This document shows, in pieces, positions 3,906-53,517 of a stretch of 64,000 nucleotides of DNA (the first letter of the stretch is position 1; every line of letters begins with the position of its first letter). The notes beneath the pieces were generated by a model that was not told the origin of the DNA, did no database searches, and worked only from the letters and a program-made list of their open reading frames with translations. The stretch comes from a virus (lineage: Duplodnaviria > Caudoviricetes). Location: IMG/VR virus record IMGVR_UViG_3300037147_000032, positions 543 through 64,542 of that record, one strand, 5' to 3'. Position numbers and translations under genes: made by a program.

Positions 3906-4490
3906 ATGAACTACGTTATCGTAACTGGCGGCGCTGTCACGTCTCACATCACTGACGGCAGCAACATCCAATTTGCATCCAACGTCTTTCAGCCCGCGAG
4001 CACGTTATCAGCGGCGCAGATGACCCAGTTCGGTGTATTCTCTGTGACCCCCGCTGCTCAGCCTGCCTCTAATCCCCTGACGCAAACCTGTGTCGAGACC
4101 ACGCCTACGCTTGTCGCTGGTGTCTGGACGCAGACATGGACAGTGAGCGCATTGCCATCTGCACAGGCGGCGCAAAACCTCTACAGTGCCGCGATCGCGG
4201 CGGGCTTGGCAGTGGTCTCGACCGCGACACCCGCGCTCAACGGCACATATTCGGTAGCACCGACTGCGGCTGCGAACATCACCGCCATTATGGCTGGAGC
4301 TGCCGCCGGCCTTGGGTTGCCGGGCAGCGGGACGACATTCGTCTACATGGACGCAAGCGGTTCGCCTCACACATTCACCGCCGCGCAATTCAGCACGCTC
4401 GCTGTCGCCGTTCGCGACTATGTCTATGCCCTCGATATGTTCGCTGCCGGGGTTGCCCCGCAGCCTGTCGCGGCTGTCACCATCCCATAG
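3906..4490 (+). CDS. Tail-fibre-assembly-like protein (DUF4376-like C-terminus)
   Basis: Has a WTQTWTV motif and a YMDASGSPHTFTAAQFSTLAVAV segment; AAGGA RBS. Confidence 0.55.
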   Translation: MNYVIVTGGAVTSHITDGSNIQFASNVFQPASTLSAAQMTQFGVFSVTPAAQPASNPLTQTCVETTPTLVAGVWTQTWTVSALPSAQAAQNLYSAAIAAGLAVVSTATPALNGTYSVAPTAAANITAIMAGAAAGLGLPGSGTTFVYMDASGSPHTFTAAQFSTLAVAVRDYVYALDMFAAGVAPQPVAAVTIP

Positions 4491-46080: not shown

Positions 46081-47624
46081 ATATCCGTTTTCATCAAGAG
46101 GTCTCGGAGCCCGGTCCCAGATACAGTATCCGCCAAAGAGATTTTACCATCAATGATTTCATAATTGCGGTCATCGACCGTCCCGATGGTTCTCATCCGA
46201 ACGACGCTGACAGAGTGGCCAGCGATTTGTGTCCCGCGTTCCTTGGCTTGCACGTATTGAGTTGCGTCCGGCGTCGAAGAGAAGAACATGATCGTGTCCG
46301 CTGCACTGAAGTCGCGGCCTTCTCCACCAGCGCCGGGCTGGCCAACAAGCGGGTTATATTTCGGATCATTCTGGAATGCAAGCCTGATCCCTTCGCGCTT
46401 GTCCGTGGGCACTCCGCCATGAAATTCAAGGGGCTTGAACCAATATGACCTGAGCTTGCTGAGCACCCGGCGGATGTCTTCCCGGTAGCGGCACCAGATG
46501 ATGGTTTTACCCGGCAACGTTCCATAGACTTCCTCAATCATCGCTTGGTAGATCGGAGCATCTTCGTCGATAGTGATGATCTCGGTATCGAGCTTGACAT
46601 AGCCATTAAGAATTTGCTGGAGCTTCATCACGCGAGCACCCGCATCTGGCGCGGCGACGGTCGGCATGTTCTCGATCTCGACAAGATGCCGAGAGACCAT
46701 TTCCAGATAGGCGCGGCGCTGCTTTTCACTCATGACGATGAGACGTGAGGTCTCCAGTAGCTCGGGCATGTCGCCGACGTCCTTGCGAAGCACGACCGAT
46801 GAGTACTTGGAGATTTTATCCCGGAGCACATCGAGGTTCTTGTAGCGCGCGATCTTCTTGTATGCGCGACTGTGCCGCTTGAACGTCGGATTATTTTCTT
46901 TTATCCGCTCAACCTCAAACTCGGCGTAGTATTGGGCGAATTTTTCATATGAGTTGCCTGCATACTCCGATCCGAACGCGAGATCGTCGCCGATCTTGAA
47001 CATCGAGTACGCTCGTAGCGGAGAATTCAGGATAGGGGTGCCCGTCTCAATCGTGACAAACTTCGCCATGTGTCCCAACTGCCGGGCGAGCCGCGTCCGT
47101 TTCGTACCGGCGTGCCCGAAGTGATGCGCCTCGGAAATCACGAGCATGAACTTCTTGTGACAGGATTTCTTGAACTCGTTCACCGCTCGGAGAATGGAGC
47201 TATTGGCCTCGGAGACAGCCCCGAACGCCTCCATGTTGACCGCCAGCCATTTGAGGCCGCCCGTGTGTTCGTTGAGCGCTTTGAGTCCAGCGATAGCGTC
47301 CCAGTCAGCGCGCTTCGGCGTTTGCCAAGCGAAAGCCATGTGCTGACCATTCTCGGGCCATGACCATCGTGGCAATTCGTTGAGGCAATAATTAATATGA
47401 ATTCCATTTGGGGCGAGCAAGATCACACCCTCGATATTGCCCTGCGCGAATTGATATTCGGCTTTGTCGATCACGGCTCTGGATTTGCCGGTGCGCATCG
47501 CCCACAAAAGAGCGCGAAATCTGTCGTCTTTATGCTCGTCGAACTCTTTCTTCTGGTGCGCCCATTGAACCTGTTTAGCGGGTTCCGGGCCTAAAAGCTC
47601 TGCAAGATCGATATCGCTTATCAT
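46077..47624 (-). CDS. SNF2-like SF2 helicase with atypical motifs
   Basis: MRTGKS, ETGTPI, KTIIWCRY and GGEGRDFSAA motifs; motif II reads ISEAH. Confidence 0.85.
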   Translation of the reverse strand: MISDIDLAELLGPEPAKQVQWAHQKKEFDEHKDDRFRALLWAMRTGKSRAVIDKAEYQFAQGNIEGVILLAPNGIHINYCLNELPRWSWPENGQHMAFAWQTPKRADWDAIAGLKALNEHTGGLKWLAVNMEAFGAVSEANSSILRAVNEFKKSCHKKFMLVISEAHHFGHAGTKRTRLARQLGHMAKFVTIETGTPILNSPLRAYSMFKIGDDLAFGSEYAGNSYEKFAQYYAEFEVERIKENNPTFKRHSRAYKKIARYKNLDVLRDKISKYSSVVLRKDVGDMPELLETSRLIVMSEKQRRAYLEMVSRHLVEIENMPTVAAPDAGARVMKLQQILNGYVKLDTEIITIDEDAPIYQAMIEEVYGTLPGKTIIWCRYREDIRRVLSKLRSYWFKPLEFHGGVPTDKREGIRLAFQNDPKYNPLVGQPGAGGEGRDFSAADTIMFFSSTPDATQYVQAKERGTQIAGHSVSVVRMRTIGTVDDRNYEIIDGKISLADTVSGTGLRDLLMKTDI

Positions 47625-48160
47625 CGGCGGCTCGCATAATTCGCGAGAGCGCGCAACTCCGTCGCGCTTGCATCCGCTTTGAGCTTATTCGCTCGCCAAC
47701 TTATGATAGCCACGTTGCCGGAGACATAGCCCTCGCAATTGTCGATCCGATCAAGGGTAGCGCGGGCAGCGTCGTACCCGGAGCCACTGTATTTAAGTTT
47801 GCATCCGAGAACCGGGCAACGTGATGGCAGTTTGCCGCCGATAAGGAGATCACGCTCAGAGATCATAAATGGAAGGTGTCGGCGTTTCGCGCTACTCCGG
47901 CTGTTCTTGAGCATGTGAGCAAGGGGCCGGGTTCTTCGCCGTTTGTCATAGGCTCGCTTATTAGACGCGCTAACGTTCTTCGGGTGCGAACGCCGCCACG
48001 CGACGGACATCCGAGCACACTTCTCCGGGTTTTTCTCGCGGTACTTTTTATTGGCCGTCCGATGGGTTCGGCGGGCTTTTATCGGATGGTCAAGACGATA
48101 CGAAGCGGCCCGAAGTCGGGCCGCTTCGCGTCTCTGCTCTGGCGTGTGGATAAGACGCAT
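47621..48160 (-). CDS. HNH-type homing endonuclease
   Basis: CPVLG...TLDRIDNCEGYVSGNVAIISWRANKLK. Confidence 0.8.
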   Translation of the reverse strand: MRLIHTPEQRREAARLRAASYRLDHPIKARRTHRTANKKYREKNPEKCARMSVAWRRSHPKNVSASNKRAYDKRRRTRPLAHMLKNSRSSAKRRHLPFMISERDLLIGGKLPSRCPVLGCKLKYSGSGYDAARATLDRIDNCEGYVSGNVAIISWRANKLKADASATELRALANYASRR

Positions 48161-50382: not shown

Positions 50383-53300
50383 TTATTTCCGAAGCCGGGG
50401 CCCTGCCCAGCCTTCGGCGGCGATTGGCATTCCGGGACACCAGACCGGCACGATGGACATGATACACTCAAATTCCTTCACTGTGCAACTGCCTATTGCA
50501 GCTTGGGCGATGACCTCATCGTGTATTGATAAAAGCAGATCGAACTCAGGCATTTCGTCTACACGAAACATAGCTTCGGCGAGAAGATCGCGCGAGCTAG
50601 CCTGATCGTAGTTCTCAACGAGCGAACCTCCGTGCGTGCCGCAACGCTTCCATTTTTTAGTATAGGTATCCCTGCCCATGAAAGACAGATGCGGCGAGAC
50701 AAAACTCTCCGGCGGATCAGGCAGCAAGCGCTTGTGTTGTTTCTCCGCGAGCTTCTCCGCATGCCAGCGGACGCGATGCTGTGGTACGCTCTTCTTGGCT
50801 GGAAAGTTGACAGTCGTCGGCTTCCCGCGCTCATTGATGGCAGCGAAGCGGTACGTGACGCGCTGGCGGACTTGCGGATCGAGATAGGCGAGCAGGCGGC
50901 CCGAGGGCAGGCGGCAATGCAGGAAGCGGCCGGCCATGAAGTAGCTGACCGAGCCAATGCCGAACTCATCCCCGCCGCAATAGTATTCCCCGCCGCAATA
51001 GTATTCCCCGCCGGGATCGAGCACGGCGGAGATCGCAGCCTTCTCGGTGTCGCGCCAGAGTTGGGGGATTTCGGGGTAGAGGTCTTTGCGATAAATGCGC
51101 ACTACTTCCTGACAAAACTCATCCTCAAGCCAGATACCCTCATCCGCCAACACAGTGGCTTGGAATTTTTCCCAGCCCATCGCGTAGCCCAGCCCGAGTA
51201 TTGAGTTATGAACTAGAAGCGGTCCGCGATCAGTCAGGATTGTGAAGCGATGACGCGGCCCCGCATTTGCAAGATCGTAAACATGCTTCAAGTTTGTTGA
51301 TGCGTTCCTGCATCTCAAAAATCTGGCGTCGGTTTTGTAAGTTGACTTGTTTGGTACAGAACCGTAAATTACCCGGCTCATAGCCTCGCTCATTCTTGAT
51401 CCGATCAAGCTCAAGAGCGGGTTGATCCCAACCGTCAAGCGTGATGATATACTGCAAGAACTGTCGTCGATCTGTACGCCATGGTTCATGAACGAAGATA
51501 CCTCTTCCTCCATAGTGGTGGAACACATCGCATGTCTTGGTGTGACAGCGTTGAATGCAACTTGAGATGCGATTGAGAAGCCGAGCCCTATCAGCTTCAT
51601 CAGGGACGATGTCTGCGTATCCGTAATACTTCTTACGCCAATAGGCGGCTTTCTTTTTGGCGCATGCATTGCATCGTGTAGACTTTCCGGACAAGAGGTT
51701 GGTTGACAAAAGGGAGTGAACCGAAGCCCCGCATGAGCATTGGACGAGCATGCGAGCAACGCCTCCACGCTCTCCGTAGGTATATCCAACCACGGTAAGT
51801 TCTCCGAACCGTGTCCCAATGCTCGGCATTGTAATTTTTCGTTTTGCGCCACATCGAGGGCCGAATGCCAACGGCAGCCCTCCGATATCGGATGGTCGTA
51901 AGTCATATCTACACCCATCATATCGAGTGTTGGTTTCGTACCTTGGTCTAGTAGCCCCTGATGACTTACCCATTCAATCCCATCCCATAACTGATCTTCT
52001 AACGTGATCTTGGTTATAGGATGGAAGCCTCGCCGCGTCAAGACAAGAGTATCGGCCCCGAGGCATTTCTTTCCGAGGGCTCGCTCGGTTTTGTCAGCTT
52101 TGGTGATCTGACGTTTATAGATCGCGCTTCCCATATCGATGTATGGGTCACCGCCGCTGTTGAACAGGTCGAGCAGACGTGAGCAGCCCGACAGCCACGC
52201 GAGCTTGCGGGCTTCGATGGCGTTGAAGTCGGCGGCGTATAGCTCGTTCCCCGGTCGTGCGATCAGTGCGCCACGGCATGCCTTGGCGAGCATGACCATC
52301 GGCTCGCCCCAGATCATCGTGATCAGATCATGGTCGAGCCCCATGATATCATCCCACGCTTCAACCATATCCTTGGAGTAGCCACGAACGAAGTTGTGCG
52401 GCTGGACACCCTTGCCAGACCACCGGCCGGTTCGATCCGCGCCGTTGAAGAGCATGATATCGTGGAGCGCATCATCGTCCGGACAGACACTGTTGCGCAT
52501 CTGCTTATACTTGGCGACAGATGACCGGTTGACTTCCATGCAGATACGGAGCGACCGCTCGATATTCTCCGCTTCGGGACCGAGCGCGTCCCACTTCTCC
52601 CGGGCAGCGGGGGCGTTGTGCTCACGGGCCTCTTCGCCAGCCTTGGTCGGAACCCCGTCGAGCGCAAAACTGAGCGTGTCGGCCTTGGTGTCGAGCAAGG
52701 GCTCGCCACCGACCTCAGCGAGCCGCTCATTCACCCATTTCAGGAAGGCTTGGCGTTGGGAGCCCTTCTGGATAGCCCCACCGGTGAGGTCGCTAAGCTC
52801 TTCATTGAGCCTCTTGGCCTCTTGGCCTGCATATTCGAAAGCCGTATTGGCGCCCGAGATGTCGAGCGCGATGCCTCGAAGGTTCATCCGCTGGTCCATA
52901 AGCCAGTATTCACGTTCGCGTGGGATCATTTCTGGACAGAAATTGGACAAGCCGCGTTCGGCCCGCACGTCCTGTTTGCAGTATTCCCAGTTTGCGCGGT
53001 GCTCGTGCTCTTCCTCACAGAACTCTATAATTCCGTCGCCACGTTTCTTGCCACGTCGGACCATCGGCTTCGAGAGCTTATTGATCAGACGTCTGCCATC
53101 CGCAATCTTACGGTCGGGTAATCCGAGCGCGTCAACGGCGTCATCGAGAGAGCGGGGCAGAGACAAACATGAGGCTTTTGCCGCCGAACAGTACAACTGG
53201 TCCAGCGTGAGCTTGACATTGAATTCGGGAAATTCGACTGTGAAGCACTCATTCCATATATTGAATTCGAAGCCGGCATTGTGTGCTTCGACTGGCTCAC

Positions 53301-53517
53301 CGCTTCGGATGCGTTCGATTAGCTCGTCAGGGCGCTTGCTCTTGGGCATCGGCGTGGCCCATGTCGGGTGGGCACGGTGCCAGAGATAAACTTTTTCCTC
53401 CTGATCGAATGACCAAGCAAGGCAAAGTGCTTGCGTGCTCGTGTCGAGCGCGTAGCGACGCGCGCCCCAACGTTTTAAGTCAGCAGCACTTCGGGTTTCA
53501 AAGTCCAAGAAAATCAC
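50383..53517 (-). CDS. polA: DNA polymerase family A with an intein
   Basis: Exonuclease motifs LDFETRS and AHNAGFE; TGRWSG; motif A ADFNAIEAR; motif B RALGKK/SILGLGY split by an insertion; motif C IHDEV. Confidence 0.95.
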   Translation of the reverse strand: MIFLDFETRSAADLKRWGARRYALDTSTQALCLAWSFDQEEKVYLWHRAHPTWATPMPKSKRPDELIERIRSGEPVEAHNAGFEFNIWNECFTVEFPEFNVKLTLDQLYCSAAKASCLSLPRSLDDAVDALGLPDRKIADGRRLINKLSKPMVRRGKKRGDGIIEFCEEEHEHRANWEYCKQDVRAERGLSNFCPEMIPREREYWLMDQRMNLRGIALDISGANTAFEYAGQEAKRLNEELSDLTGGAIQKGSQRQAFLKWVNERLAEVGGEPLLDTKADTLSFALDGVPTKAGEEAREHNAPAAREKWDALGPEAENIERSLRICMEVNRSSVAKYKQMRNSVCPDDDALHDIMLFNGADRTGRWSGKGVQPHNFVRGYSKDMVEAWDDIMGLDHDLITMIWGEPMVMLAKACRGALIARPGNELYAADFNAIEARKLAWLSGCSRLLDLFNSGGDPYIDMGSAIYKRQITKADKTERALGKKCLGADTLVLTRRGFHPITKITLEDQLWDGIEWVSHQGLLDQGTKPTLDMMGVDMTYDHPISEGCRWHSALDVAQNEKLQCRALGHGSENLPWLDIPTESVEALLACSSNAHAGLRFTPFCQPTSCPESLHDAMHAPKRKPPIGVRSITDTQTSSLMKLIGLGFSIASQVAFNAVTPRHAMCSTTMEEEVSSFMNHGVQIDDSSCSISSRLTVGINPLLSLIGSRMSEAMSRVIYGSVPNKSTYKTDARFLRCRNASTNLKHVYDLANAGPRHRFTILTDRGPLLVHNSILGLGYAMGWEKFQATVLADEGIWLEDEFCQEVVRIYRKDLYPEIPQLWRDTEKAAISAVLDPGGEYYCGGEYYCGGDEFGIGSVSYFMAGRFLHCRLPSGRLLAYLDPQVRQRVTYRFAAINERGKPTTVNFPAKKSVPQHRVRWHAEKLAEKQHKRLLPDPPESFVSPHLSFMGRDTYTKKWKRCGTHGGSLVENYDQASSRDLLAEAMFRVDEMPEFDLLLSIHDEVIAQAAIGSCTVKEFECIMSIVPVWCPGMPIAAEGWAGPRLRK
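51205..52065 (-). mobile_element. Intein (287 aa) in polymerase motif B
   Basis: Block A CLGADTLVLT, block B MTYDH, block F VYDL...HRF, block G LVHN followed by Ser+1; in frame with the polymerase. Confidence 0.92.
51230..51829 (-). CDS. HNH endonuclease nested out of frame inside the intein
   Basis: GTRFGELTVV, QCSCG, NLLSGKSTRC, YGGRGIFV and LDRIKNERGYEPGNLRF...NRR motifs; the frame is open from the ATG at 51973. Confidence 0.85.
   Translation of the reverse strand: MPSIGTRFGELTVVGYTYGERGGVARMLVQCSCGASVHSLLSTNLLSGKSTRCNACAKKKAAYWRKKYYGYADIVPDEADRARLLNRISSCIQRCHTKTCDVFHHYGGRGIFVHEPWRTDRRQFLQYIITLDGWDQPALELDRIKNERGYEPGNLRFCTKQVNLQNRRQIFEMQERINKLEACLRSCKCGAASSLHNPD

What the first reader, a model, noticed from the sequence alone, without database searches (positions are those of the whole stretch)
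51205..52065. Intein whose homing endonuclease is a nested gene in a different reading frame
Seen: polymerase motif B carries an in-frame 287-aa intein with all splicing blocks (C1, TxxH, VYDL, HN/S+1). Between blocks B and F the intein frame is Ser-rich and shows no LAGLIDADG or HNH motif. The same DNA read in the -1 frame on the same strand encodes a clear 199-aa HNH endonuclease (51829-51230), whose tail overlaps intein block F. Both frames stay open for about 200 codons, where roughly 9 stops would be expected at 3/64 per codon. Known: intein endonucleases are normally in frame and released with the spliced intein. Inference: this is a three-layer element (endonuclease in intein in polymerase). 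The nuclease would be made separately, by internal initiation or frameshifting, while splicing discards the shadow-frame peptide. That decouples homing from splicing.
Basis: partly seen in the sequence, partly recalled or inferred. Interest (0 to 1): 0.92.

Follow-up and report, generated by a model that had tools for sequence, protein, structure and literature searches.

The report
Polymerase intein with overprinted endonuclease gene
A self-splicing protein insert (intein) in this phage's DNA polymerase carries its probable mobility nuclease as a separate gene in a shifted reading frame of the same DNA; the layout is real and under selection, but it is shared by many phages and this kind of intein was described in 2025.

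Summary
The family A DNA polymerase ORF (50383..53517, minus strand) carries a 287-aa class-1-type intein at motif B (52065..51205). Its -1 frame holds a 247-codon open frame (51973..51233) that encodes an HNH-like (His-Me finger-like) protein.

This is not an assembly error. The same two-frame layout is present in 94 of 94 related loci. Contigs from three other sequencing runs show no indel.

Substitution phase and codon-position entropy switch from the intein frame to the HNH frame at about intein residue 65, and back at about residue 262. So the middle of the intein is constrained as the HNH gene, and the intein frame there is only kept open. AlphaFold2 gives a Hint fold with a roughly 150-residue disordered linker, and a well-folded HNH-frame protein.

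HNH identity (54%) far exceeds extein identity (29%), and the closest polymerase lacks the intein. Both point to homing.

No slippery site is conserved, so internal initiation is the likelier route of expression.

The kind is known (actinophage inteins, bioRxiv 2025; dnaX). This scan has already reported the same layout on other DNA (75 notes). Verdict: a new member of a known kind.

The parts
50383..53517 (-). Family A DNA polymerase precursor ORF (1044 aa, GTG start at 53517). N-extein 53517..52066, intein 52065..51205, C-extein 51204..50383.
   Evidence: Pfam DNA_pol_A E 2.5e-10. PHROG phrog_17 DNA polymerase E 3.7e-80. The alignment with intein-free Roseobacter phage RDJL3 polymerase shows one gap that matches C485..N771 exactly.
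51205..52065 (-). Intein, 287 aa, inserted in polymerase motif B (..ALGKK | C...HN | SILGLGYAMG..).
   Evidence: Invariant C1, T55, H58, D264, H286 and N287 in 48 sequences.
51880..52065 (-). N-terminal Hint part (intein residues 1-62, with blocks A and B). It evolves under intein-frame constraint only.
   Evidence: Entropy is highest at intein codon position 3 (H2-H3 from -0.35 to -0.86). AF2 pLDDT is 95-97.
51811..51879 (-). Transition zone (intein residues about 63-85). The three codon positions vary about equally, so this zone is probably constrained in both frames.
   Evidence: H2-H3 between -0.06 and +0.16 for windows centred on residues 65-83. (bin 61-90: 1.05, 1.18, 1.14).
51298..51750 (-). 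Intein-frame linker (intein residues 106-256). Ser-rich, not conserved, predicted disordered. This is the 'shadow' reading of the HNH gene.
   Evidence: AF2 pLDDT below 50 for 106-159 and 161-256. The intein-frame alignment has almost no conserved columns here. Entropy is highest at intein position 2. Ser 15.2% over residues 100-257.
51205..51294 (-). C-terminal Hint part (intein residues 258-287, blocks F and G, VYDL..HN). Intein-frame constraint.
   Evidence: the signature switches back at about residue 262. pLDDT 96..
51230..51973 (-). Nested ORF in the -1 frame: 247 codons from ATG 51973 plus TGA at 51232..51230. It encodes the HNH-like protein. The last ~16 codons overlap intein block F onwards.
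   Evidence: phrog_374 E 8.9e-34. AF2 mean pLDDT 82, residues 45-235 mostly above 90, residues 1-4 and 10-41 below 50. 381 database homologues.
51971..51973 (-). Candidate start 1: ATG at intein nt 93. It is formed by an invariant intein Trp codon plus the preceding base.
   Evidence: ATG in 13 of 13 loci, and ATG/GTG/TTG at this position in 64 of 80 unique loci. However, codons 1-34 downstream show no HNH-frame constraint and are predicted disordered.
51869..51883 (-). Candidate start 2: TTG 51871..51869, preceded by GGAGG (51883..51879) with a 7-nt spacer. The product would be 213 aa.
   Evidence: Sequence read. A start codon sits at this aligned position in 66 of 80 unique loci. It coincides with the point where the intein-frame signature ends. 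The SD-like motif is present in only a minority of loci.
51827..51829 (-). No SD-like motif precedes it.
   Evidence: Free-standing homologues begin at the equivalent of residues 45-52. This Met is not conserved in the other intein copies. A start codon at this aligned position occurs in 8 of 80 unique loci.
51662..51739 (-). Cys4 cluster (C79, C81, C101, C104 of the 247-aa ORF) inside an SH3/Tudor-like N-terminal barrel of the nested protein.
   Evidence: The four Cys are invariant in 60 sequences. Model residues 44-111 match Tudor/SH3/KOW-like barrels at Z 4-5.
51332..51412 (-). Beta-beta-alpha core of the nested protein (residues 188-214: ELDR..Y198..N202-LRFC-..N211..N214).
   Evidence: DSSP E188-191, E203-206, H208-213. 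D190, R191, Y198, P200, N202, R204, F205, N211 and N214 are invariant. Best structural match is PacI at Z 5.6 over residues 115-216.

Best explanation
This is a mobile intein in motif B of a phage family A DNA polymerase. Its homing-endonuclease module is not a domain of the intein protein. It is a separate gene overprinted in the -1 frame of the intein's central region.

Shown:
- The polymerase frame reads through the whole element. It encodes an N-terminal Hint part (about 100 residues), a non-conserved disordered linker of about 150 residues, and a C-terminal Hint part (30 residues).
- The -1 frame of the linker DNA encodes a well-folded HNH-like protein of about 200 residues. That frame is the one under purifying selection.
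- The layout is shared by all related elements examined.

Inferred:
- The precursor splices as a class 1 intein (C1, TxxH, HN, Ser+1). This restores motif B and discards the linker peptide.
- The nuclease is translated on its own by internal initiation. In this window the best candidate start is TTG 51871 behind GGAGG. The alternatives are ATG 51973 and ATG 51829.
- The nuclease cuts intein-free motif B alleles of co-infecting phages, and repair copies the intein and the nested gene together.
- The element most likely arose when a free-standing HNH gene inserted into a mini-intein.
For: Architecture.

Conservation:
- 94 of 94 loci (the window, 13 loci from named phages and IMG/VR, and 80 further IMG/VR loci) have the frame one base downstream of the HNH frame open across the whole HNH match.
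- 80 of these are unique DNAs. 79 of the 80 have no internal stop in the HNH frame. The exception is L094.

Selection, by substitution phase:
- In two groups of close relatives, substitutions at intein nt 271-720 fall 67 and 81 times on intein position 2 (HNH position 3), against 5 and 18 on position 1 and 20 and 31 on position 3.
- At nt 1-180 and at the 3' end they fall mostly on intein position 3.

Selection, by entropy:
- Entropy over 56 sequences shows the same switch.
- The breakpoints lie at about residues 65 and 262.

Stop avoidance: P(0 stops in the intein frame) is 0.019 for the window. In seven other loci it is 0.0000-0.0046 under resampling with extein codon usage (0.0002-0.11 under the within-ORF shuffle). 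Five free-standing homologues have 9-26 stops in that frame.

Folds:
- Intein model: pLDDT 95-97 for residues 1-90 and 96 for 258-287, below 50 for 106-256. Foldseek's top rows are nearly all inteins or Hint domains (probability up to 1.00, best E 7.7e-3).
- HNH model: pLDDT above 90 for residues 45-235.

Identity of the nested protein: phrog_374, phrog_2081 and phrog_3377 'HNH endonuclease', E 8.9e-34 to 1.7e-16.

Mobility:
- Mean HNH identity to the window is 53.8%, against 29% for either extein, in 57 loci, with r = 0.13.
- The closest extein relative among named phages (RDJL3; 42.9% by tblastn; 46% in the alignment) has an uninterrupted motif B.
- Intein GC is 50.1%, against 57.5% for the exteins.

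Origin:
- Streptococcus phage Javan422 has a 168-aa mini-intein at the same site, without a nested ORF.
- Free-standing homologues start at the equivalent of ORF residues 45-52.

Not an assembly error: contigs of three other runs from three studies cover 51100-52200 in pieces with 0 differences and 0 gaps.
Against: Nothing here shows expression, splicing or cleavage.

- The start codon is unresolved. The two conserved xTG positions are by-products of invariant intein Trp codons. Three of the four possible preceding bases give a start codon, so 64-66 of 80 is about what chance gives. The GGAGG before TTG 51871 is not conserved in most relatives. ATG 51829 has no SD-like motif and is not conserved.
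- The protein has no hit in Pfam or NCBIfam and no sequence relative in the PDB.
- Its best structural match is weak (PacI, Z 5.6).
- The position of the canonical catalytic His (end of strand 1) holds an invariant Arg (D190-R191). Nuclease activity therefore cannot be assumed from the family name.
Confidence: 0.8

Rival explanations
1. Artefact. The endonuclease is really in frame with the intein, and two compensating indels in the assembly create the apparent second frame.
For: The window comes from metagenome-type data, where indel errors can occur.
Against: The same -1 relation holds in 94 of 94 loci from independent sources, including isolate phage genomes such as SETP3, SO-1, MR14 and Vibrio phage 97.13. 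Contigs from three other runs show no inserted or missing letters over the stretch. The intein frame is free of stops in every copy, which two random indels would not give.
Confidence: 0.01
2. The nested protein is made by programmed -1 ribosomal frameshifting from the polymerase/intein frame. The product would be an N-extein/Hint-N/HNH fusion, not a separate protein.
For: The HNH frame is the -1 frame in all copies. In several loci it stays open far upstream into the N-extein (ORFs of 377-430 codons in L027, L044, L055 and L060).
Against: A canonical X_XXY_YYZ heptamer in the intein frame within intein nt 1-300 occurs in only 8 of 56 loci, each at a different position, and not at all in the window. 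Such a fusion would lack blocks F and G and would waste polymerase precursor. In most loci a stop closes the -1 frame just upstream of intein nt 93.
Confidence: 0.05
3. The nested ORF encodes a conserved protein that is not an active homing nuclease. Examples would be a DNA-binding or nicking-deficient His-Me finger derivative kept for another role, or a recently inactivated relic.
For: There is no invariant His in the beta-beta-alpha core, and Arg191 sits where the catalytic His is expected. The His-Me finger survey describes the catalytic His as nearly invariant and reports that two of its three groups lacking it have lost nuclease activity (PMC5714182, passages). There is no Pfam or NCBIfam hit.
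Against: Purifying selection acts on this frame across hundreds of copies. The intein and nested gene are far more similar between phages than the polymerases that host them, and intein-free close relatives exist, as expected for active homing. The best structural match, PacI, is an active nuclease that also lacks the His and uses a Tyr in the loop between the strands (PMC5714182). Tyr198 is invariant in that loop here.
Confidence: 0.12
4. The insert is a group I intron with an intron-encoded HNH gene, as the GenBank note for Sodalis phage SO-1 gp38/gp39 says.
For: The annotation note 'type I self-splicing intron' in NC_013600.1.
Against: No Rfam family, intron or otherwise, matches 50900-52400 at E up to 1. 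The polymerase frame is open through the insert in every copy. The ends carry the intein blocks C1, TxxH and HN+Ser/Cys under protein-level constraint. The model is a Hint fold.
Confidence: 0.01

Closest known systems
[quoted passage not shown]
   Same: The splicing domains are in the extein frame, and the endonuclease ORF lies on the same strand in another frame between the splicing blocks. Frame 3 is the -1 frame, as here. The in-frame middle has no recognisable structure. The authors propose origin by invasion of an intein by a free-standing endonuclease gene, and continued horizontal transfer.
   Different: The hosts are actinobacteriophages. The polymerase invaded there is listed as DNA polymerase III alpha, not family A motif B. 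The endonuclease there is matched to T4 endonuclease VII (1E7D, Z 6.5) over residues 1-67, whereas here it is a roughly 200-residue Cys4-barrel plus D-R..Y..N..N module. Whether the two nucleases are homologous was not tested. That paper's supplementary tables could not be opened.
[quoted passage not shown]
   Same: A broadly distributed intein whose endonuclease is read in an alternate frame, is conserved under purifying selection and co-evolves with the splicing domain. Mini-intein relatives exist.
   Different: The host gene is cellular. The endonuclease is called LAGLIDADG and anti-sense in the 2025 preprint's account. It is not a phage polymerase.
ShiLan-type hidden HNH insertions in phage DNA methylases (Arsenault et al., Genes 2025, PMC11855218; abstract and Discussion read)
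   Same: An out-of-frame HNH gene lies inside an insertion that the host frame reads through without stops. The open question of how the hidden gene is translated is the same.
   Different: ShiLan has no splicing domains and is thought to stay in the mature protein. Here complete intein blocks flank the nested gene.
Fractured genes: split inteins with a free-standing endonuclease gene between the halves (Dassa et al. 2009, PMC2677866, passages)
   Same: The endonuclease is a separate gene located between the N- and C-terminal intein parts. Its 3' end overlaps the downstream intein part.
   Different: In fractured genes the host gene is broken into two ORFs and splicing is in trans. Here the host frame is continuous in all 94 loci, so splicing would be in cis.
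PacI, an HNH restriction endonuclease lacking the catalytic His (3m7k; His-Me finger survey PMC5714182, passages)
   Same: It is the best structural match of the nested protein's C-terminal domain (Z 5.6, rmsd 3.2 over 86 residues). Both lack His at the end of strand 1. PacI uses a Tyr in the loop between the strands, and an invariant Tyr198 sits in that loop here.
   Different: Sequence identity is 14%, and Z is below the level the tool regards as safe. PacI is a restriction enzyme, not a homing endonuclease. Residue-level equivalence of the Tyr residues was not checked.

Membership tests
Class 1 intein (Hint domain) | N-terminal Cys/Ser nucleophile at position 1 | tested here: met
   C1 at 52065..52063. 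Invariant in 48 sequences.
Class 1 intein (Hint domain) | Block B TxxH | tested here: met
   T55-Y-D-H58 at 51903..51892. T55 and H58 are invariant.
Class 1 intein (Hint domain) | C-terminal His-Asn followed by Ser/Thr/Cys at +1 | tested here: met
   H286-N287 followed by Ser in the window. Cys follows in most relatives and Ser in L001 and L022.
Class 1 intein (Hint domain) | Hint fold | tested here: met
   AF2 gives pLDDT 95-97 for the N and C parts. Foldseek's top rows are inteins or Hint domains (DnaX mini-intein probability 1.00, E 7.7e-3). No row reaches E 0.001, probably because of the long disordered linker. No Pfam Hint model hit.
Class 1 intein (Hint domain) | Insertion removable to give a contiguous host protein | tested here: met
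   The gap in intein-free RDJL3 polymerase coincides with C485..N771.
Class 1 intein (Hint domain) | Protein splicing activity | not testable with these tools
   Needs expression of the precursor.
Intein with out-of-frame homing endonuclease (non-canonical inteins of Gosselin et al. 2025) | Endonuclease ORF in a frame other than the extein/splicing frame, between the splicing blocks | tested here: met
   -1 frame ORF 51973..51233, between block B and block F.
Intein with out-of-frame homing endonuclease (non-canonical inteins of Gosselin et al. 2025) | In-frame middle without recognisable structure, while the alternate-frame product folds | tested here: met
Intein with out-of-frame homing endonuclease (non-canonical inteins of Gosselin et al. 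2025) | Alternate frame under purifying selection | tested here: met
HNH / His-Me finger endonuclease | Sequence membership in a curated HNH family | tested here: inconclusive
   PHROG families named HNH endonuclease match strongly (phrog_374 E 8.9e-34). There is no Pfam hit at E up to 1, no NCBIfam hit and no PDB sequence relative.
HNH / His-Me finger endonuclease | Beta-beta-alpha-metal fold | tested here: inconclusive
   The model has strand 188-191, strand 203-206 and helix 208-213. Best match is PacI at Z 5.6. Foldseek found nothing at E 0.001 or better.
HNH / His-Me finger endonuclease | Catalytic His at the C-terminal end of the first strand | tested here: not met
   Invariant D190-R191 at that place. 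There is no invariant His anywhere in the 60 sequences. The His is described as nearly invariant, with PacI as a Tyr-using exception (PMC5714182).
HNH / His-Me finger endonuclease | Asn in the inter-strand loop and Asn/His at the start of the helix (metal ligand) | tested here: met
   N202, N211 and N214 are invariant.
Split intein / fractured gene | Host gene broken into two ORFs around the endonuclease gene | tested here: not met
   The host frame is continuous in 94 of 94 loci.
Programmed -1 frameshift site | Conserved slippery heptamer at the frame junction | tested here: not met
   8 of 56 loci have any heptamer, none at a shared position, and none in the window.
Group I intron | Match to an intron RNA model | tested here: not met
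   No Rfam match at E up to 1 in 50900-52400.

The most novel reading that the evidence does not exclude
The overprinted protein may be a histidine-less, PacI-like His-Me finger enzyme. In this reading the invariant loop tyrosine (Y198) takes the catalytic role, with D190/R191 and N211 at the metal and phosphate site. That would make this very large family of polymerase-intein endonucleases a new catalytic class of homing endonuclease. The family comprises hundreds of phage copies plus free-standing relatives that also sit in or next to polA genes. The roughly 25-codon zone where both frames are constrained (intein residues about 63-85) would then be a natural example of two folded proteins encoded by the same bases.
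Probability: 0.3. Interest if true: 0.6.

Novelty: new member of a known kind. Interest (0 to 1): 0.35.

Why it matters
The finding shows that an intein and its homing endonuclease can exist as two genes sharing one stretch of DNA, so that splicing and homing are carried out by different polypeptides. It supports the 'free-standing endonuclease invades a mini-intein' route for the origin of full inteins. It also gives an intermediate between mini-inteins, split inteins with a free endonuclease gene, and canonical in-frame inteins.

In practice, annotation pipelines usually miss the nested gene. The vB_SenS-Ent3 record, for example, describes this polymerase intein as 'encoding splicing domains' only.

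For this window alone the value is modest. The same layout is present in about 160 deposited phage genomes and in hundreds of viral contigs. The kind was published in 2025-26, and this scan has already reported it many times.

Tried and rejected
Family and structure searches that gave nothing:
- Pfam gave no hit for the nested ORF and no Hint or intein model for the polymerase ORF at E up to 1.
- NCBIfam gave only a chance-level RacA hit at E 0.018.
- A profile search of PDB sequences gave only a Cys-motif resemblance to cytochrome oxidase 5B at E 0.04, which I take as chance.
- Foldseek against the PDB found nothing at E 0.001 or better for the HNH model.

Expression signals:
- The promoter and terminator scan of 51100-52400 found nothing on the minus strand and no more sites than in shuffles.
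- Rfam gave no match.
- The slippery-heptamer scan found nothing conserved.
- No RNA holder was listed among the sequencing runs, so expression could not be examined. The runs laid are contigs, not raw reads. X4 covered only 54 bases.

Search for in-frame or fused forms:
- The 'longer' search returned 9 proteins. I read 7 of them. All are free-standing multi-domain or N-terminally extended forms without Hint ends. The tool itself says this is weak evidence.

A link I looked for and did not find:
- I expected the free-standing homologue that splits polA of E. coli phage U1G to sit at motif B. It sits upstream of motif A.

Literature searches:
- Two searches gave 0 papers: intein + HNH + 'different reading frame', and intein + homing endonuclease + 'alternative reading frame'.
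- Searches on Jerseyvirus, APSE and SO-1 (passages) found no description of the nested gene in these family A polymerase inteins.
- Within the library searched I therefore found the kind described but not this family.
- Gorbalenya 1998 is not held. The supplements of the 2025 preprint are closed and may list related cases.

Not used: complex prediction, the search of protein representatives and the genome and metagenome scans.
Full report
**What is there**

The window is phage-like DNA. Its 1044-aa ORF at 50383..53517 (minus strand) is a family A DNA polymerase (Pfam DNA_pol_A; phrog_17).

An intein interrupts polymerase motif B:
- Residue 485 is a Cys that begins the insert.
- Residues 770-771 are His-Asn, followed by Ser. 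This gives a 287-aa insert at 52065..51205.
- Block B (T-Y-D-H, 51903..51892) and block F (V-Y-D-L, 51282..51271) are present.
- In 48 related inteins C1, T55, H58, D264, H286 and N287 are invariant.
- An alignment with the intein-free polymerase of Roseobacter phage RDJL3 has a single gap that matches C485..N771 exactly. It restores ..GK-A/S-ILGLGYxMGWEKF...

The frame one base upstream of the intein frame (the -1 frame) is open from 51973 to 51233. That is 247 codons from an ATG, ending in TGA at 51232..51230. The third frame has 25 stops in 51100-52150.

**More than chance, and not an error**

Resampling synonymous codons of the nested ORF with the exteins' codon usage gives a mean of 3.6 stops in the intein frame and P(0) = 0.019. 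A codon shuffle within the ORF gives P(0) = 0.021. In seven other loci P(0) was 0.0000-0.0046 under the extein-usage resampling and 0.0002-0.11 under the within-ORF shuffle. Five free-standing homologues carry 9-26 stops in the equivalent frame.

tblastn with either frame hits the same places in other phages. In every case checked the nested ORF is in the -1 frame of the polymerase. The cases include Vibrio phage 97.13, Pseudomonas phage MR14, EBPR siphovirus 2, Sodalis phage SO-1, Salmonella phages SETP3, T102 and Ent3, and IMG/VR contigs.

A profile scan of IMG/VR found 303 relatives, and I took the best 80. Across the window, 13 earlier loci and these 80:
- 94 of 94 have the intein frame open over the whole HNH match.
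- 80 are unique DNAs, and 79 of those have no internal stop in the HNH frame. L094 is the exception.
- 20 others show a stop only in the last 10 aligned columns, which is the natural end of the ORF.

Contigs of three other sequencing runs from three studies cover 51100-52200 in pieces with no differences and no gaps. Compensating indels are excluded.

**Which frame is the gene**

In two groups of close relatives I counted variable sites by codon phase.

| Region (intein nt) | Group | Intein pos 1 | Intein pos 2 (= HNH pos 3) | Intein pos 3 |
|---|---|---|---|---|
| 271-720 | IMG/VR (5 loci) | 5 | 67 | 20 |
| 271-720 | Jerseyvirus/SO-1 (4 loci) | 18 | 81 | 31 |
| 1-180 | IMG/VR | 3 | 2 | 16 |
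| 1-180 | Jerseyvirus/SO-1 | 6 | 4 | 22 |
| 811-end | IMG/VR | 2 | 1 | 12 |
| 811-end | Jerseyvirus/SO-1 | 1 | 0 | 14 |

In the middle the excess is at intein position 2, which is HNH position 3. At both ends it is at intein position 3.

Column entropy over 56 sequences gives the same picture. A 7-codon sliding window places the switches at about intein residue 65 and residue 262. Residues 65-83 show equal variability at all three positions, which suggests constraint in both frames.

So the centre of the intein evolves as the HNH gene, and the intein frame there is only kept free of stops.

**Structure**

The intein-frame product, modelled with 48 sequences, has pLDDT 95-97 for residues 1-90 and 96 for 258-287. 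Residues 106-159 and 161-256 are below 50. Foldseek's top rows are almost all inteins or Hint domains (DnaX mini-intein, gp41-1, DnaE, DnaB; probability up to 1.00). E-values are weak (best 7.7e-3), probably because of the long unstructured part.

The -1 frame product, modelled with 60 sequences, has mean pLDDT 82. Residues 1-4 and 10-41 are below 50, and residues 45-235 are mostly above 90. It has two domains:
- An N-terminal SH3/Tudor-like barrel holding four invariant Cys.
- A C-terminal domain with strand 188-191, strand 203-206 and helix 208-213.

**What the nested protein is**

PHROG families named HNH endonuclease match it strongly (phrog_374 E 8.9e-34). Pfam, NCBIfam and PDB sequences do not.

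The best structural match is the HNH restriction enzyme PacI (Z 5.6, rmsd 3.2 over 86 residues). That is below the level the tool regards as safe.

The invariant residues are D190, R191, Y198, P200, N202, R204, F205, N211 and N214. There is no invariant His. The place of the catalytic His is taken by Arg.

The His-Me finger survey (PMC5714182, passages) states that PacI also lacks this His and uses a Tyr in the loop between the strands. It also reports that two other groups without the His are inactive. Tyr198 lies in that loop here. I therefore call the protein HNH-like. I regard a PacI-like mechanism as a plausible but untested inference.

**Mobility**

In 57 loci with both exteins alignable, the HNH part is on average 53.8% identical to the window's. 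The N- and C-exteins are 29.0% and 28.9% identical, and r = 0.13. An endonuclease that is much more conserved than the polymerase hosting it implies transfer between polymerase genes.

Further signs:
- The closest polymerases among named phages (RDJL3 at 42.9%, then Janthinobacterium, Pseudomonas, Rhodobacter and Xanthomonas phages) match in two pieces covering 71-73% of the query, that is, without the intein.
- Intein GC is 50.1%, against 57.5% for the exteins.

**Origin**

- Streptococcus phage Javan422 has a 168-aa mini-intein at the same motif B site with no nested ORF.
- Free-standing homologues (Bacillus phage 250, Pectobacterium phage Horatius, E. coli phage U1G and others) begin at the equivalent of ORF residues 45-52.
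- In U1G the homologue lies between two polA fragments, upstream of motif A.
- A second polymerase intein at another site (APSE-1, Caulobacter phage RW) carries a distant relative of the same nuclease in the +1 frame.

These observations fit insertion of a free-standing gene into a mini-intein. Dassa et al. 2009 and Gosselin et al. 2025 proposed this route for their cases.

**How the nested protein is made**

A canonical -1 slippery heptamer occurs in only 8 of 56 loci, at scattered positions, and not in the window. Frameshifting is therefore unlikely.

Two start-codon positions recur in the HNH frame. One is at intein nt 93 (64 of 80 unique loci) and one is at intein residue 65/66 (66 of 80). 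Both are the xTG formed by an invariant intein Trp codon plus the preceding base, so their frequency is close to the three in four expected by chance.

In the window:
- The second position is TTG 51871, preceded by GGAGG at 51883..51879 with a 7-nt spacer. It coincides with the point where the pure intein-frame signature ends.
- The 34 codons between ATG 51973 and this TTG show no HNH-frame constraint and are predicted disordered.
It has no SD-like motif and is not conserved.

I rank TTG 51871 first. All three remain open.

**Comparison with what is known**

The kind is published.
- A 2026 preprint treats the cyanobacterial dnaX intein in the same way and traces the idea to Gorbalenya 1998.
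- The ShiLan element is an out-of-frame HNH insertion without splicing domains.
- GenBank already annotates the nested ORF in SO-1 (gp39, mislabelled as an intron) and in APSE-1 (P46).
- The Ent3 record describes the intein as 'encoding splicing domains' only.

My searches found no paper describing this family A motif B family.

After I had reached this reading, the scan's own index showed 75 earlier notes in at least 67 genomes with the same conclusion. I consulted it for the first time.

**Verdict**

This is a new member of a known kind. The open points are the start codon, the catalytic mechanism of a His-less nuclease, and direct proof of splicing and homing.

Noticed in passing
window 47621-48160 (-): A free-standing 179-aa endonuclease-like ORF (phrog_3322 'endonuclease', E 4.7e-29) lies two genes downstream of the polymerase. 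It shares the LDRIxN..GY..GN core with the nested protein (39% identity over 31 residues, E 5e-4) and likewise has Arg where the catalytic His is expected.
   Followed up: partly
L014 3001-3918 (APSE-1) and L013 (Caulobacter phage RW), ending at 3918: A second polymerase intein sits at a different insertion site (HN | CENxxQAxARD). It carries a nested ORF of 219-222 codons in the +1 frame, annotated as HNH endonuclease P46 in APSE-1. The ORF is a distant relative of the window's nested protein (26-37% identity).
   Followed up: partly
L015 3001-3504 (Streptococcus phage Javan422): A 168-aa mini-intein lies at the same motif B site with no nested ORF. It is a candidate for the endonuclease-free ancestral or decayed state.
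   Followed up: partly
L021 1-3106 (Escherichia phage U1G): The family A polymerase is split into two genes (gp48, gp50) by a free-standing homologue of the nested protein (gp49, 218 aa). No intein is present, and the break lies upstream of motif A.
   Followed up: partly
window 51239-51292: Contigs in runs X4 and X7 match only these 54 bases (intein block F) with 6 differences and then continue into unlike sequence. Other, diverged relatives of this intein probably occur in the same kind of sample.
   Followed up: no
window 50971-51012 (-): The C-extein contains a perfect tandem repeat of six residues (GGEYYC GGEYYC GG). In the alignment with RDJL3 polymerase it falls in a stretch where RDJL3 has an 8-residue gap. 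Seen at the protein level only.
   Followed up: no
L094 (IMG/VR contig), HNH match 1591-2139: This is the only one of 80 unique copies with an internal stop in the HNH frame (aligned column 61 of 183), while the polymerase frame stays open. It may be a copy whose endonuclease is decaying.
   Followed up: no
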